64,000 bases of DNA, from the NCBI RefSeq assembly GCF_006345805.1, contig NC_043003.1, positions 85,870,001 through 85,934,000 of the forward strand, given 5' to 3'. The first letter of the stretch is position 1, and the number at the start of each line of letters is the position of its first letter. The stretch is from Octopus sinensis. Taxonomy: Eukaryota. Positions 15,270 through 58,354 of the stretch are shown here, piece after piece. Made by a program: the position numbers and the translations under genes. The notes below the pieces were generated by a model that saw nothing but the letters and a program-made list of their open reading frames with translations, ran no database searches and was not told the DNA's origin.

Positions 15270-16010
15270 AAAAAACAAGTCCTATCTGTTATCTCGGGGG
15301 ACCAAAAGCGTAACAGATATTTAGCCACATATGGACATGATCCGAAAAGTTCAGTTCTTGAACTTAGACATGTGGCGGGGTCTAAGCTGCTTTTCCAGAT
15401 AAGCCATCTTTCTATATCACAAAGACCGCACTTTCCACTGCCGTTGGTGTAGGGCTTACACTGGGCCAAGATCTTCCAATGGATGGTGTAACTAACACCA
15501 TCTTTCAAGGACCATATATGACTGCATAATTTGGTCGTTTTCCTTTTATCTCAGTGCCTGAAGCTCAAGGTGTGATTATTGAACCTGGCCTTGAAATTAC
15601 CCTCCGTAAGGTCCGCGTATTTCTTCGCCGAAATCGTGTCCTTAGTGGAAAAAGAGTCCACGGTGGCTTCATAAATGATGGTCTCCAGTTAGCGGGCACA
15701 AAGTTTTAGCGCTGCAAAAACAGCTGGTTTTATTTTGTGGTTTCTGTGTGTTGTGTGAGATTATATTTAAAAAATTAGTAGTTGAGCTGAAACTGATTTT
15801 TAAGTTATGTCTATTGAAGAGCTTTCTGTAACCATGGTTGACTGGAAAATGTCTGTCTATCAGTGCTAAGAAATACTTGCCTCTATTAAAGGTCACTTCG
15901 GGTGAGTAGGGGTGTGTGAACCAGATAGTTTTCCTATTCCTGTGCTTTCTTTTCTTTATTAATGGACTGGTGGTAGGTGTATAGGTTATTTTCCTCGCTA
16001 AATCCATTAT
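15270..16010 (-). pseudogene. Penelope-like element: RT C-terminal region + GIY-YIG endonuclease
   Basis: IWFTHPYS..GKYFLALIDRHFP..KLFNRHNLKISFS; CFC..CPL; IYEATV..KKYADLTEGNFKARFNNH; WKILAQCKPY..CGLCDIE..RTELFGSCP. Confidence 0.9.
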
Positions 16011-34311: not shown

Positions 34312-34329
34312 ATATATATATATATATAG

Positions 34330-34495
34330 TTGAAATTTATAGAAAAACAAAAGACAAAGACAGGTATATTAGTTTGATACTCGGGAAAATGAAAAAAGTC
34401 TTTTACGTTTCGAGCCTACGCCCTTCAATAGAAAGGAATAAGAGAAAATAAACAGAAGGAGAATGAAAAAAAACTTATGTATTTAGCGTTCAAGT
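34330..34495 (-). mobile_element. PLE-type terminal repeat with degenerate hammerhead (34400-34435); related copy at ~37690-37790 (+)
   Basis: cttt CTATTGA a gggc(gtag)gctc GAAA cg TA aaag; second copy CTGTTGA a gagc(gtag)gctc GAAA. Confidence 0.55.
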
Positions 34496-35244
34496 ATAAT
34501 ATATATATATATAATACTTACACATGCATATATGAATAAATATATACGCATATATGTACATATACACAAACGGGCATATACTTAATATACTCAATATATG
34601 TAGTTAGAGATAGATTGATACTGATATAGAGAGAAAGATACATGTTGACGCTACCATTGTCCTTTTTAAAATTTTTGTCAGATTTCTAAAGAAGAGAGAA
34701 TTCTCCATATGTTGTCGCTATAATAAACTGCAGAATCAGCAAAGCAAGAGTATTGCATTAGTATAAATGCATTGGTGTGCAAGAAGTGAATGTATCGTTA
34801 AAAGTTGTATAACTTATTTCAAAATTATGTTTAAATAGAAAATGTCAACTAGTTTTTCTTTGTTTGCTTCTATTCATCCAAGCATTAAGTAAAACAGTGG
34901 AAGAGGAATTTTATAAAGATAGAAGCTGAAACTACGAAGGCTTCACTGTTAGTGATTTCATTATATTCATGCAAATGTAAAACTTACGCAGTTGCTAAAC
35001 CCAATAAAACACTTGTTAGATCTCTCTCAAATAGCACACTGTAGTGTAGATAAAGTGAAGTTTTGCATAGCACACTGTAGACAGACACAGTAGACTTTTG
35101 GATATACAAAAAATGATGGGAAAGTATTTGAGCATAGGTCTAGGCCAGCTTAATTAAGGAAGTACTGGGGCGAAATAAGTATGTAGTATCAGCTGATATG
35201 AATGAAAAAGCATGTTTCGAATTTTCAGTTTAGGAACTAATATA

Positions 35245-36197
35245 AGCAAAAATGCTAGTTCTGAAATCTCTCTAAGAAATAAACGCAGTAGTTGTACTAA
35301 CAAGTAAAGTTCGTAGCCTCTTCAACATGGATGTCCGTTCGAACGGATATTCATGCGATTTTTTAACCCCAAAAAGACATCTCCTGTAGCTGGTTAGCGA
35401 TGCACAGCTGCATCCGAGATATTGCGAGCAGGTGAATAAATCCTTACTCCCTTCTAGCAATGAGACCAGCAGACCAGCCTGGTTTCGGGCTATTTCTGCC
35501 TCTTTTCAGTACTGGACACCTCGTCCGCTAGAGATGGCAGTAGCTCACTTCTGCTCGCAACATCTATATAATTTCAAGCGATATTCAGTCGCTAATTTTG
35601 CAACAAGTAAAAATGCTAGTTCTAAAATCTCTTAAAGGGATCAACGTAGTAGTTGTACTAACAAGTAATGTTCGTAGCCACTTTAACATGACTGTCCGTT
35701 CGAACGGACGTTACTGCGATCTTTTAATCCCTAAGAGGACAAACCCCTTTAACTGGTTAACAATGCACAGCTGCATCCGAGATATTGCGAGCGGGGAAGC
35801 GAACCCCTACCATCTTCTAGCGACGAGATTGCAGTAAAGTCCGCTCGAACGGATAGCCACGTTGAAGTGACAACGAACACTACTTGTTAGTACAACTACT
35901 GCGTTGATCTTTTAGAGAGATCTCAGAACTAGCATTTTTGCTTGCCTCAAAATCAACGACTGTATCGCTTGAAATTATATATATTGCGAGCAGAGGCGAG
36001 CTACTGCCATCTCTAGCAGACGAGGTGTCCAATACTGAAGAGAGGCAGAAATAATCCCAAACCAGGCTGAGCTGTTGGTCCCTTCGCTAGAAGGTGGTAG
36101 GGATTCGCTTCGCTGCTCGCAGTATTTCGGATGTAGCTGTGCAACGTTAACCAGCTAGAGGAGATGTCCTCTTGGGGTTAAAAATTCGCAGTAAACG
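35245..36197. repeat. 361-bp structured repeat: ~1.6 direct copies followed by one inverted copy
   Basis: aatgctagtt at 35251 and 35612; gtccgttcgaacgg at 35333 and 35694; reverse-complement monomer ~35827-36197. Confidence 0.93.
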
Positions 36198-36856: not shown

Positions 36857-37793
36857 ACACACACCGATATTAACTTTTCACTCTATTACAATTAATTTTA
36901 ACACTAACGATTGTATATATAAATATATATTTTAACAATAACGTATTTAGAAGTTGACGATTCTAACTATTAAGGGAAGAGTAAGTAAATATCAACAATC
37001 TCATTACTTGACAAATACTTTATCTTATCGACCCTGGAGGAATGAAAGGTAAAGTTGACCTCGGCGGTATTTGAATTCAGAATGCAAAGCATCGTAAGAA
37101 ATATCACAAAACATCTTTTAGACACTTCACCAATTCTTATGATATTCAGAAAAATATAGAACCCAATAACTTTGTTATATTTTTAACACCATCTCAAATT
37201 GGTCGTAATACGCAAATTGCGTTCGATTGCCCGCTGAATGCTATTTTATTGTTAATGCGCCCTGGAGTGGATAAAGACTAATTCCTTCTCAGTATACCAA
37301 ATTTGATAAAATATATATTGCCTACCATTCTTTCAGAAAAAAATCGAATAGGTAGTAGAGTAAAATATCATAGAGTAAAAAATAACTACAAAAAATTTAT
37401 TTTATTACATTACTGTACGTTGGAGAGGCGTAAAAAGAATTTTCTGAGAGGTAAAAACTGAAAAAAAAGAGTCATTTCTCCATCAACGTGAGTTCAGTTT
37501 ATTGATACTGCTAAAACAAGGTCATGGGCACCAAACCACTTCCTCCTATAACTATATTAGATCTTCCTCCTCTAGATTCAACCTTTTTTTAAAATTATTA
37601 TCTCCCTTGCTTTCAACCTCTTTTCCCCAATCCCCCGCCATGCTGGACCGCTGAAATCTACAAGTTTTTCTCTCTCCCCGTTTATTATCTCTTATTCCGT
37701 TCTGTTGAAGAGCGTAGGCTCGAAACTTTTCCATTTTTCCCGAGCGTCAAACCAATACACTTGCTTGCTGTTCATACATCTATAAATTTTAAC

Positions 37794-37974
<181 letters not shown>

Positions 37975-38009: not shown

Positions 38010-39070
38010 CGAGGGTTGTTCATTAAAGATTTCTCCTGATCGACTTCTAGATATTACAGGAAACGGAACTTGTACAGGTATAATTATACATGCCTCTACG
38101 TGTCACATTGTAAATTGCAGCTTTCCACTAGCATTCGTTACTCTTTTACCGAAGTGGACTTAGGTGTTGTAATGGAGGCAACTGAATGCAGATTAGTTAT
38201 CAGGTTCTTATACTTGAAAAGACGTACACCAAAAGAGATTTTCGACGAGAGGAAAAAATTCATAGTGATTATGCACCATCATGCGACGAAGTCAAGCACA
38301 GGCATCGCCAGTTCAAACTGCTCCTACATTCCGCCATTGATGACCACATTTCGCTGTTGATGACGACACCATCCTTTGAGTGGGAGCCGCCAATTTTGGA
38401 GGATCACCGCATAACTATTCAGCAACAACCCCAAGAAGTGAAGATAAGTGTAGAGTATCTGGAAAAACTTATTTGCACAAGCGGAAGTTGTCCGTACGAT
38501 GGATTACCTGGATGTTCACATCTTTTCAGAAGCAGGAACGAATCAATTGCACCCAGGCTCTTGGTAATGTGCCAAGAAAACAAGGAGGACTATTTCGCCA
38601 GACCTATCACACAGAATGAAACATGGGCCCATCACTATGATCCCGAGACAAGAGTCCAGTCAAACAATGGAAGCGTAGTAGCTCACTACCTCCAAGGAAG
38701 GCTTGTGTCCAACCCTCAGCAGGTAATGCTCAGAATTTTGGGGCCAGCGTGGAGTAATGATGATGGATTTTGTGGCAAGGGACATCACATATATTTCTGT
38801 GCTGCAGAAATTGTGGGACGCAATTGTGGGACGCTTGGCATGCTGACCAAAGGAGTCCGCCTCCTCCAATACAACGTTCCAATTCACAATACGCATGTTG
38901 CCCAGATGAAAGCACACTCCTGCGGCTATGAAATTCTAGGAAGAGAAGGGGCAAAAAAATAATAAGTAGAGAACAGATAAAGAGGGATATATTGGTTGAA
39001 AAAATGTTCAAAGGCTTGGAAGTAGATTTCTCTATTGAAGTAAAGTGTAAGGTGAACTAAATGTTCAAAC
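38010..39070 (+). pseudogene. Mariner element with decayed transposase
   Basis: Start cgagggttgtt; MEATECRLVIRFLYLKRRTPKEIF (ATG 38172); ITQNETWAHHYDPETRVQS; LLQYNVPIHN (HDNARPH); multiple frameshifts. Confidence 0.88.
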
Positions 39071-39139
39071 TATAAAGACTGGTAAAACTCACTTATATGA
39101 TCTAAAAGTATGTTTCTACCAGTGCTTACATTTGTAAGA

Positions 39140-39514
39140 TCACTCTATAAGTGTGTTAACAAGGTGATTCTTAGAGAAGAGAATATGGAAGAGTTCAGTG
39201 TTGCAAATGTTACAAAATCCTTTGCCCTTGTCATAAGGGAAAGATATGGACAGCATGAACCAATCTAACTTAAAATTCTTATTGTTGTCTTTAAGATACC
39301 AAACCAATTTATTTAGCCCTGTGCTATGATGTTTACTGCTATCCCTAAATGAAGAATAATGATTGGAAATTCTCTTAGATAACCGGGAAGTGGATGTGCT
39401 AATGTAGAAGTAGACATCGGTACCGCAAGAAATTTTACATTGGTATATATAATTCTTAATCTTACAATTATTAGACATAAATTTAATTCTGTTATGGTTG
39501 TCCTCAGAGACCAA
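39140..39514 (-). pseudogene. PLE GIY-YIG endonuclease fragment; oppositely oriented terminal-repeat remnant at ~39545-39750
   Basis: NYIYQCKI..FYISTST..KRISNHYSSF..STGLNKLVWYLKD..CNICNTE; GAAACATATGTC at 39575-39586 (+). Confidence 0.85.
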
Positions 39515-39819
39515 AATTATGTTATTCTTACTATTATTATTATTATGCCTTTGGAATAAACCAATGTTGTCTTCGAAACATATGTCAAAAGTAAAAGAAT
39601 TTGAATAAAATCCGCGTTCAACTCCATTTATTTACTTATACTATACAAATTACTGCACATTAACTCGAAGTTTCTACCTTTGAATAAGTCGCCACATCCT
39701 TGTTACTTGCGTGAATTTTGCTACCCTGGTAACTGTTTATTGAATTTTCCATGTTAACGGTAAACCAAGGATAATTCATTCATCCATTTACATATAGATA
39801 CACACACACACACACATAC

Positions 39820-54497: not shown

Positions 54498-55607
54498 ATG
54501 GCCGTGCAAAAGTTTTCAGCCACCTCACATACACCAATCAAGATACATTGCTTTAAAACAGAAAAATGTCTATAATGGAAGTTTATTACATAATGTTCAT
54601 TTCAAGAAGTTATTGTGCATTATTAATATTTCGTGTGGCTTCCCTTAGCTTCAATAATTGCTTCAATGAACCTAGGAATGAAATCCCATTCTCTGTGGGT
54701 GAGCTCTCACAACTATTCCAGACTGCGTGGATTCTTCTGACGAGCTCTTCTCTTTAGTTCTGTCCAATTTGCTCGATGATATTTAAGTCAGGGCTCTGAG
54801 CTGCTCAATCTTTCAATACGATAGCATCTTCATCAGCTAGACTCCATTGTATTTCACGCGATTTGTGGTACAGAGCTCCGTCATGCTGAAAAATCACACC
54901 TTCATCCAAGTCTGGTATCAAATTGTCCCTCAGCAACTGGATGTATTTGGCATTATTCATGTTACCGTCAATTTTAACCAACTTGTTTTTTGAACCGCCA
55001 CTTTTTATGTATCTCCAAAGCACCAGACTCTTACCCCTAAACATCACTGTTTTCATCGTATAACATGGGTCGTTTCGCTTTCTAATAAGCGAGAATTTGT
55101 CATAATTGTCACTACACAAGTGATCACGCGAAGTAGCCACACACACAAACACACAGAAACTCACATGCAAACAAGAACATGCAGACACACAAAAACACAT
55201 ACAGACACACACATGACACGCGATTGGTTCACAGATGCGCTGTCTTTTCACTGTGTCAATTCTTTTTTTTTTGTTGTTGCTACAGCCACTTCTTTTCCTC
55301 AGCTGTGTACTACCTTCAATCAAAATTCATCCGACGCGCCAGGCTCTCCTTCTCATTATCTCACGGTGCCTCATCTCCCGAACCTGTACTAAACATTGTC
55401 CGTAAGCGTTACAAGTCTTCTCGAGCCAAAGACATAGGTGCATTCGACGTTCATGTTAGATTTCAGAAAGCTTGCCAAAGCACGTGGACGAAAGAGGAAG
55501 TGCTGAGGGATTTAGGTGTGAGAAGGAATAAGTAAAAGGCTGAGAGCAGTATTTTTCAGAAAGAATCATCACACAAACGCGGGAGGCCGAAAAAGTTTGA
55601 CGGTATT
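54498..55607 (-). mobile_element. Tc1-like element with decayed transposase
   Basis: KIDGNMNNAKYIQLL..IFQHDGALYHKS..AQSPDLNIIE; imperfect TIRs ccgtgcaaaagttttcagccacc and ggaggccgaaaaagtttgacgg; CA-rich insert ~55120-55220. Confidence 0.85.
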
Positions 55608-56970: not shown

Positions 56971-58354
56971 CTAGCAGTATCGCCCGGCGTTGCTCGGGTT
57001 TGTAAGGGAAATAACTATATAAGCATTTTTAGAGAGTTATAGCCAAAAAATAGCAAAAAATGCATTAAAAATGGAAAAAAAATGATGGTAATTTTTTAAA
57101 AAATCGTTGACTCATCGTAGACATTTTTAGAAAATTAGTTCCCTTATATAATAGTGAAAAAATGCATTAAAATTGAAAAAAAATGATGGTAGATTTTTTT
57201 TTAAATCGTAGACTCATCGTATTGTATTGGCATCCTTTCTGTCTCGGGAGACAATGGAGTTGCGCATGAAGTAGTTTAGTCCGGCTTTTATATTTCATGT
57301 CCTGATATATTTCCTGCTGTGGCTGTGTAGTCCTATCCTGGACAAACACTCCCTCTGGCAGGTACCACAAATATAGCGAAGACTGTTCCTGGCTGGTTGT
57401 AGTGCCATAGTCTCTTGTTTACGTCTCTTCCTTTCTTTCCATTTCTCCCCTCTCTCTCTGTCACTCTTTTACTGTACGTCGCCATTCTCCACGGTTGCCG
57501 GCAAACATCCTTGTAACGTAAGATCGGTCTACCCACAGACCTAGTACACCTAGCAAGCTCTCCGTAGAGTATGTCCTTGGGGATTCTGCCATCTTTCATA
57601 CGGCTAACACGCCCAAGCCATCTCGTACGTCTTTGTGTGAGGAGTGCAAACATGCTTGGTATTTCTGCTTGCCTGAGACATCTTTGTTGGGGATATGATT
57701 CTGCCATTTGATGCGGAGGATTTTTCGGAGGCAGCGCAGGTGAAAGATGTTTAGGCGACGCTATTGGCGTGTGTATAGCGTCCAGGTCTCGCTTCCATAC
57801 AGTAGAGTCCTGAGTACACATGCCTGGTAGATCTTCATTTTCGTGATCTTGGTCAGCTTATTGTTGTCCCAAGCCCGTTTGGAGAGTTGGGCCATCGCAG
57901 CAGCTGCCTTGTCAATGCGTATATTGAGCTCAGCGTCAAGGGATAGGTTGTAGGTGACGGTAGAGCCCAGATAGGTAAACTTCTCCACCTCTTGTAATCT
58001 GTGGTTTCCAATATGTATGTTTGGGATGTCCGATGTTGCCTGGCCCATGATGTTGGTCTTCTTAAGGCTGATAGCTAAGCCAAAGTCGTTACATGCTTGC
58101 TCAAAACAGTTAATGAGCCTTTGGAGGGCTTCTTCTGTGTGTGTTACCAGAGCGGCATCACAGAAGAAGCCCTCCAAAGGCTCATTAACTGTTTTGAGAC
58201 TCATCGTAGACGCGCGCTAATACCCAGAAGGGCTCGATATGAATCACGACTATAAGATACCCGGTTTTGGTTAAACTGCACCGCAAAATGTGGGAGTAGT
58301 TAGGAATCTAAATCGTAGGAGACAGACACACAACCTCTCTTTTATATATAAAGA
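56971..58354 (-). mobile_element. Non-autonomous Helitron with nested RTE
   Basis: Minus strand A|TCTTTATATATAAAAG ... cccgagcaacgccggg hairpin ... CTAG|T; internal ~100-bp direct repeat. Confidence 0.88.
57222..58196 (-). mobile_element. 5'-truncated RTE/Bov-B-like LINE
   Basis: DAALVTHTEEALQRL..FGLAISLKKT..FTYLGS..LLYGSETWT; RWLGRVSRMKDGRIPKDILYGEL; TSD agactcatcgta 57210-57221 / 58197-58208. Confidence 0.93.

What the first reader, a model, noticed from the sequence alone, without database searches (positions are those of the whole stretch)
35245..36197. 361-bp highly structured tandem repeat with an HHR-like junction: candidate non-LTR retrozyme / circRNA element
Seen: each monomer has a 16-bp palindrome (gtccgttcgaacggac, perfect at 35694-35709), a gatgca/tgcatc hairpin and an imperfect ~46-bp stem (~35417-35465 with ~35520-35565). 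The stem is capped by a 50-nt unit. At 36029-36078 (+) it reads ccaata CTGAAGA gaggca GAAA ... tgttgg; at 35466-35515 (-) it reads ccagta CTGAAAA gaggca GAAA tagcc..ggctg g TC tgctgg. The closing stem shows a compensatory G-C/A-U change between copies. Known: metazoan non-LTR retrozymes are tandem repeats of a few hundred bp with a type-I HHR and produce structured circular RNAs. Inference: this may be a cephalopod member. Caveats: stem II is only 6 unpaired nt, so it is non-canonical, and each copy has a core or cleavage-site defect.
Basis: partly seen in the sequence, partly recalled or inferred. Interest (0 to 1): 0.72.

Follow-up and report, generated by a model that had tools for sequence, protein, structure and literature searches.

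The report
Decayed two-armed hammerhead retrozyme insertion
This is an old, damaged copy of a dispersed 359-base repeat carrying a predicted self-cutting RNA fold; its back-to-back arms and two fixed end points indicate it was likely pasted in by a Penelope-type enzyme, and a LINE retrotransposon lands at one exact spot in the repeat family, its predicted transcription start.

Summary
The sequence features are real, but the locus is not a plain tandem. It is 1.6 head-to-tail units on the minus strand (35828-35244) joined head-to-head to one unit on the plus strand (35828-36195). Both window copies have broken cores and no strand holds two hammerheads, so this locus cannot give a monomer circle. 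The family is dispersed (hundreds of copies, none seen above two units). Its 3' ends fall at two fixed sites, long paired with short in 25 of 28 two-armed junctions, often in (TA)n: the Penelope-like (PLE) footprint. No partner PLE matched by sequence. An L1/Tx1-type LINE inserts at unit position 175 (23 of 27 independent 3' ends), 59 nt below a motif shared by all 30 U1/U2 promoters examined. Cleavage, expression and circles are untested. This scan noted the same architecture before, on other DNA of this and other genomes; my literature searches found no report of the LINE targeting.

The parts
35244..35828 (-). Long arm, 581 nt = 1.6 units, unit position 245 round to 107; 3' end at the family's 'long' end site (107)
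   Evidence: (L001 q915-1499, 90% to the majority unit)
35828..36195 (+). Inverted arm, 370 nt, unit position 351 round to 2; stops 47 nt short of the usual 'short' end site (49)
   Evidence: long plus shortened arm also at L262, L286, L299, L305, L306
35826..35830 (.). Head-to-head (5'-to-5') inversion junction, 7 nt 3' of a predicted cleavage site on the minus arm
   Evidence: bridged by X2 contig
35466..35515 (-). Type I hammerhead, copy 1: stem I 35515-35510 with 35471-35466; core 35509-35503 with G8 changed to A (35504); stem II; G12-A15.1 35486-35483; stem III; GUC site, predicted cut after 35472. Predicted inactive
   Evidence: G8 changes abolish a PLE hammerhead (G8C in PMC11167929)
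36029..36078 (+). Type I hammerhead, copy 2: core 36035-36041 intact, but G12 lost (36058), stem II broken and cleavage triplet lost (36070-36071). Predicted inactive
35591..35596 (-). U1/U2-type promoter (PSE-like) motif, one base off the family form
35952..35957 (+). U1/U2-type promoter (PSE-like) motif, one base off the family form
35523..35535 (-). Empty 13-nt LINE target (unit 175-187); first base is the predicted transcription start
36009..36021 (+). Empty 13-nt LINE target (unit 175-187); first base is the predicted transcription start
35694..35709 (.). 16-bp palindrome = a hairpin of the unit RNA (unit 3-18); imperfect copies at 35333 and 35839

Best explanation
The locus is one decayed, predicted-inactive insertion of a dispersed non-coding 359-nt repeat with a type I hammerhead fold (a likely non-LTR retrozyme), likely copied into AT-rich DNA by the reverse transcriptase and endonuclease of a Penelope-like element acting in trans. 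Inferred cycle: RNA polymerase II starts at unit position 175 from an internal U1/U2-type promoter; in rare two-hammerhead loci the RNA would self-cleave after position 238 twice and close into a structured circle; a PLE protein would cut both strands of a (TA)n site and start cDNA at two fixed internal points (positions 49 and 107), giving two back-to-back arms that run past the cleavage site and the promoter and often exceed one unit. Shown: architecture, end sites, flanks, motif conservation, decay. Also shown: an L1/Tx1-type LINE inserts at position 175 of this and a sister family; inferred: it borrows the promoter and carries a 13-nt target-like leader in its RNA.
For: Hammerhead: all 11 fixed core positions are the majority base in 39 copies; stems I-III pair in 29-38 of 39 per pair; natural copy L013 folds into the three-way junction. 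Sister family (350-352 nt, 65-66% identical): core intact in 31 of 32, stem I different at 4 of 6 pairs yet paired; over the unit 82 of 110 and 87 of 111 pairs kept (39-50 when shifted, L160), both-sides-changed pairs still pair in 12 of 20 and 19 of 22. PLE footprint: 42 of 56 outer 3' ends in two windows (p about 1e-29), 70 of 91 in a second sample; 25 long+short, 3 short+short, 0 long+long among 28 head-to-head junctions with both ends at fixed sites (47 junctions in all); TA flank 19 of 42 and 34 of 70 against 9-11% background. Two RT start sites, a 'tail' and AT-rich targets are described as PLE-specific (PMC11167929; bioRxiv 2021.04.23.441226). G000 holds intact Hydra-like PLEs with (TA)n flanks, two 3' ends and hammerheads. 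Template: 1 of 67 arms reaching the cleavage site stops there; 38 of 127 arms exceed one unit. Promoter: ATCAGT at -57 to -61 in 30 of 30 U1/U2 genes, 0 of 15 U6; best PWM hit in both families at -59 from the LINE site. LINE.
Against: No Rfam hammerhead hit on any copy. No sequence similarity between either unit and the 20 PLE loci or 30 PLE fragments tested, so the partner is unidentified; octopus Naiads also prefer (TA)n. Only 2 of 39 copies keep core and all stems; only 2 of 60 unbiased loci hold two same-strand hammerheads and neither keeps the first promoter; no long arrays among 103 exact 20-mer hits. Stem II has a bulge here and an A-G first pair in the sister family. In vitro, PLE insertion did not need hammerhead cleavage and 8 of 9 predicted Xenopus retrozymes did not cleave, so a circle is not required by the data. 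The tail is 58 nt, against 30-40 nt in the papers and about 120-150 nt in this genome's PLEs. Transition bias inflates the compensatory counts. The first sample was selected for full-length matches, the second for positions 81-100.
Confidence: 0.8

Rival explanations
1. The unit is only the terminal repeat (pLTR) of an autonomous PLE, and the copies are its 5'-truncated ends, with no retrozyme life of their own.
For: Same insertion footprint as PLEs; retrozymes are reported to be sisters of pLTRs (bioRxiv 2026.07.22.740005); most copies are short 3' fragments.
Against: Copies run unit into unit for up to 2 units with no ORF; the only shared 5' flank in 39 and 60 loci was the LINE tail; the hammerhead is canonical-type with an extended stem I, unlike the long-stem II minimal form in this genome's PLEs.
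Confidence: 0.08
2. Retrozyme-like and PLE-mobilised, but from linear uncleaved read-through RNA; no circle is made and the hammerhead serves only to trim transcripts.
For: Unprocessed RNA was the dominant substrate for a purified PLE; no circle shown here; two-hammerhead loci exist (L003, L009, L259, L294).
Against: Many arms include the promoter region upstream of the predicted start and exceed one unit, while long source arrays were not seen. This is a variant of the best explanation; I put circle versus linear template at about 60:40.
Confidence: 0.3
3. The LINE, not a PLE, mobilises the repeat (3' transduction or SINE-like use).
For: 10 of 12 5'-truncated LINE copies have the unit downstream but none within about 9 kb upstream.
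Against: Unit 3' ends have no A-tail and are the same fixed sites with or without LINE; only 4 of 60 unbiased loci carry a LINE tail; complete LINE insertions have unit on both sides; fixed ends on both arms do not fit L1 twin priming (recalled).
Confidence: 0.05
4. A DNA-level satellite, MITE or Helitron-internal repeat with a chance hammerhead look.
For: No Rfam hit; the locus has an inverted-repeat shape; one chance descriptor hit elsewhere in the window.
Against: One-strand polarity of ends, variable 5' truncation, core conserved across 35% divergence, sense fold stronger than antisense.
Confidence: 0.03

Closest known systems
Metazoan non-LTR retrozymes (PMC7229834, passages and parts 2-3 of 6 read, supplement unreadable; bioRxiv 10.64898/2026.07.22.740005, parts 1-3 of 5 read, supplements not seen)
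   Same: Non-coding unit of a few hundred bases (mussel 350-390), canonical type I hammerhead, GC under 50%, self-paired circle fold, co-occurrence with PLEs.
   Different: Dispersed fragments to dimers rather than arrays; two-armed insertions with two fixed ends; targeted by a LINE; cleavage and circles untested.
Penelope-like elements, Hydra and Poseidon clades (bioRxiv 10.1101/2021.04.23.441226, passages and section 11; PMC11167929, parts 1-2 of 4; PMC4209133, parts 1-2 of 4)
   Same: Partial tandem plus 5' inverted copy, tail on one end, (TA)n targets, hammerhead in the repeat.
   Different: No ORF; canonical-type rather than minimal hammerhead; 58-nt tail; no similarity to the PLE ends tested.
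Newt satellite 2 (known here only through a citing passage in PMC2220036; the original was not held)
   Same: Hammerhead repeat with an internal snRNA-type promoter read by polymerase II.
   Different: Satellite arrays there; here the promoter is predicted from the genome's own U1/U2 genes, not measured.
Target-specific Tx1-clade LINEs: Tx1 in Tx1D, Keno in U2 genes, Tx1-Mar (PMC4494074, passages)
   Same: Insertion at one site of a multicopy target, tandem copies sharing a duplication, possible use of the target's transcription.
   Different: Target is a hammerhead retrozyme start site in two sister families; not found. Clade not tested by a tree.

Membership tests
Type I hammerhead ribozyme | Conserved core and NUH site around three helices | tested here: met
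   Family majority and 15 of 39 copies core-intact; sister 31 of 32. Not met in either window copy.
Type I hammerhead ribozyme | Match to an Rfam hammerhead model | tested here: not met
Type I hammerhead ribozyme | Self-cleavage | not testable with these tools
   needs an in vitro assay
Type I hammerhead ribozyme | Loop 1 / loop 2 tertiary contact | tested here: inconclusive
   An internal loop in extended stem I and an AAATA loop II are kept in both families; likeness to described contacts is recalled, not modelled.
Non-LTR retrozyme | Non-coding unit of 150-450 bp, GC under 50% | tested here: met
   359 nt, longest frame 59 aa; 41% GC over 35001-36000
Non-LTR retrozyme | At least two consecutive units each with a hammerhead | tested here: inconclusive
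   Not met at this locus; met at L003, L009, L259, L294 and sister L156, L160; no multimers seen.
Non-LTR retrozyme | Monomer-length linear and circular RNA | not testable with these tools
   only contigs of guessed-RNA runs were available
PLE-mobilised element | Partial tandem, inverted 5' copy, tail on one end, AT-rich target | tested here: met
PLE-mobilised element | Sequence link to the pLTR of an autonomous PLE | tested here: not met
   only Hydra-like PLEs were sampled
Autonomous PLE | RT plus GIY-YIG ORF | tested here: not met
U1/U2-type promoter | Genome's own PSE-like motif about 57-61 nt above a start at A | tested here: met
   the start itself is not measured
Tx1-clade target-specific LINE (the family's parasite) | More than 20% of copies flanked by one target (criterion in PMC4494074) | tested here: met
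   26 of 30 best 3' ends, 23 of 27 without the three discovery loci
Tx1-clade target-specific LINE (the family's parasite) | RT groups with the Tx1 clade | not tested
   Domains fit L1/Tx1 (zf-CCHC, RVT_1, zf-RVT; relatives carry PF03372); no named relative, no tree; the label is recalled.

The most novel reading that the evidence does not exclude
A three-layer parasitism recorded in DNA: a circular hammerhead RNA with an snRNA-type promoter is copied by a PLE enzyme from two fixed start points at once, while a site-specific LINE sits at its transcription start, takes its promoter, has its own transcript ended by the hammerhead 64 nt after its tail, and is carried to new sites as cargo by the PLE route (which would explain LINE 3' pieces joined to the unit with no unit upstream).
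Probability: 0.3. Interest if true: 0.72.

Novelty: new variant of a known kind. Interest (0 to 1): 0.46.

Why it matters
How animal retrozymes get into DNA is open: the PLE link in print rests on co-occurrence and pLTR similarity. Here the insertions themselves carry the PLE two-start footprint, which names two testable RT start sites on the RNA. The LINE target marks a predicted transcription start to the base. The window copy itself is a dead fossil; the young sister family (dimers L156, L160) is the material to test.

Tried and rejected
Rfam scans found no hammerhead, even on intact copies in 86-99 nt windows. No RNA holder listed for the locus; contigs of guessed-RNA runs hold 85-95% like pieces of both families, more for the sister, which shows neither strand, level nor circle and is not used as evidence. 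The joint two-family MAFFT alignment misaligns the 3' half, so pair counts were made per family instead and no covariance model was built. Partner search: 30 fragments and 20 long loci of Hydra-like PLEs gave no similarity; Pfam does not recognise their ORFs, so the clade call rests on motifs read by eye. Other PLE clades were not sampled. The homologue search for the LINE RT gave no clade name. A pile-up of 5' ends at the cleavage site was looked for and not found. 5' ends near position 175 as proof of the start site were rejected: 4 of 4 in the unbiased sample are LINE tails. A polymerase III (U6-type) promoter was considered because of the TATA-like run; U6 genes lack the motif. In one search the sister family's long end is capped by my probe at +223, so it is approximate. 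No paper found on cephalopod retrozymes; the unreadable supplement of PMC7229834 may hold one.

Full report
What is at the locus. The stretch 35244-36195 is made of one repeat unit in two orientations: 581 nt on the minus strand (1.6 units) and 370 nt on the plus strand, joined 5'-to-5' at 35828. A contig from independent run X2 crosses the junction with one difference, and contigs of X2 and X3 cross the left and right borders.

The family. A search of G000 gave 1291 first-look candidates, 40 scored, about 80% identical to the window copy. An exact 20-mer occurs 103 times on many contigs; among the 100 places listed only two same-strand pairs lie about a unit apart, which at about 10% decay suggests several hundred dispersed copies (my estimate) and no long arrays. 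The majority unit is 359 nt and non-coding. Folded as a circle it gives -150.5 kcal/mol, z -9.0 against 100 shuffles; the antisense gives z -7.4.

The hammerhead. With the second GAAA the motif reads as a type I hammerhead: 6-bp stem I extended past an internal loop, CUGANGA, a 4-bp stem II with one bulge, GAAA, a 3-bp stem III plus the A-U pair, and GUC at the cut site. In 39 copies from 29 loci not chosen on the motif, 15 keep the core and 2 keep core and all stems; G12, in a CpG, is the most decayed (27 of 39), as expected for unselected old copies. L013 folds into the three-way junction by itself. Rfam gave no hammerhead hit on any copy tried. Both window copies are broken: G8 in the minus copy; G12, stem II and the cut triplet in the plus copy. 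The minus arm begins just after the previous unit's hammerhead, so no strand has two.

A sister family gives the covariation. It has 350-352-nt units, 65-66% identity, 2078 candidates and younger copies. Its core is intact in 31 of 32 copies; stem I differs at 4 of 6 pairs and still pairs in 30-32 of 32; its first stem II pair is A-G, which is not canonical. Over the whole unit 82 of 110 and 87 of 111 predicted pairs are kept, against 39-50 when shifted (one unit tested); pairs changed on both sides still pair in 12 of 20 and 19 of 22, a count that transition bias inflates.

How copies were inserted. Outer 3' ends cluster at unit positions 40-53 and 93-116: 42 of 56 in the first sample, 70 of 91 in 60 loci taken from the 20-mer hits. 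5' ends are scattered. Of 47 head-to-head junctions, 28 have both ends at fixed sites: 25 long+short, 3 short+short, none long+long. About half of these ends abut TATA/ATAT (19 of 42, 34 of 70; background 9-11%). Partial tandems, an inverted 5' copy and a tail on one end are the PLE pattern, and a purified PLE cuts both strands of AT-rich DNA and starts cDNA at two internal sites. G000 has intact young PLEs with the DKT and CxCx5C motifs described for the Hydra clade, (TA)n flanks, two 3' ends and their own hammerheads, but none of the 50 loci tested resembles either unit. The window locus has the long end at 107 and an inverted arm 47 nt shorter than usual. Only 1 of 67 arms that reach the cleavage site stops there and 38 of 127 exceed one unit, so the template was a circle or uncleaved multimer, not the cut linear monomer. 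Which one is not settled.

A LINE uses the family as target. Three of 12 exact-motif hits shared a LINE 3' end just upstream. Of the 30 best LINE 3' ends in the genome, 14 run into this family, 9 into the sister, 3 into the target alone or a diverged relative and 4 into none; without the three discovery loci it is 23 of 27. Of the 12 best 5' ends, 6 follow the unit directly, 5 follow another LINE tail and 1 has a deletion; the 18 weaker matches are not adjacent to the unit. L188, L189 and L190 have unit on both sides with a 13-nt duplication, positions 175-187. The 5' copy has C at position 182 in 6 of 9 readable junctions but 0 of 37 empty sites, so it is likely carried in the LINE RNA. The domains are zf-CCHC, RVT_1 and zf-RVT; the Tx1 label is recalled. 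In 10 of 12 truncated copies no unit lies upstream within about 9 kb; this is unexplained, and re-mobilisation of LINE-plus-unit is my guess.

The promoter. Earlier notes of this scan suggested that such LINEs land at a transcription start; I tested it. All 30 U1 and U2 genes fetched carry ATCAGT at -57 to -61, none of 15 U6 matches do, and a matrix from them scores best at exactly -59 from position 175 in both families (12.8 and 13.0 bits; next best 4.9 and 5.1). The motif is intact in 22 of 37 copies and one base off in both window copies. A newt hammerhead satellite is reported to use an snRNA-type promoter (passage in PMC2220036).

Expression was not established: no RNA holder was listed and only contigs were available.

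Verdict. It works like a non-LTR retrozyme moved by PLE proteins, and it meets the sequence features of that family, with cleavage and circles untested and the partner unknown. The window copy is a fossil. Ten literature searches found retrozymes, PLE tails and target-specific Tx1 elements separately, and no cephalopod retrozyme or LINE that targets one. The scan has noted the same architecture in other families of this genome and in other genomes; those notes are unchecked and were not counted as support.

Noticed in passing
L137-L166 (best dimers L156, L160): Younger sister retrozyme-like family, 350-352 nt, hammerhead core intact in 31 of 32 copies, same two-end geometry, same LINE target.
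   Followed up: partly
L052:1817-1900: LINE tail followed by the target and then a more diverged relative of the unit; possibly a third family.
   Followed up: no
L260 and L282, just 5' of unit position 175: Tails of other LINE subfamilies at the same target; several LINE copies are 2.4-2.5-kb internally deleted forms (L189, L190).
   Followed up: partly
L167-L186: Intact, very young Hydra-like PLEs (ORFs up to 960 aa and more, repeats 98-100% identical) with long-stem II hammerheads in L172, L175, L176, L179, L185; Pfam does not recognise the three ORFs scanned.
   Followed up: partly
window 34324-34470 (-) and 37665-37798 (+): Two short copies of another repeat, 74% alike, inverted around the locus and each ending in microsatellite; the first has a minimal-hammerhead-like motif near 34428. 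Probably PLE end fragments; also in 12 of 307 loci.
   Followed up: partly
window 39092-39517 (-) and 15302-15947 (-): Fragments of Hydra-like PLE coding sequence, up to 65% identical to the intact ORFs.
   Followed up: no
window 38186-38962 (+), 54805-55326 (-), 57333-58216 (-): Stop-free frames that look by eye like Mariner/Tc1 transposase and LINE RT remnants; not scanned.
   Followed up: no
window 46614 (+): Single hit of my loose hammerhead descriptor with a weak stem II; likely chance.
   Followed up: no
L212-L216: U2 genes on different contigs share a near-identical 90-nt upstream sequence, suggesting that gene and promoter were dispersed together.
   Followed up: no
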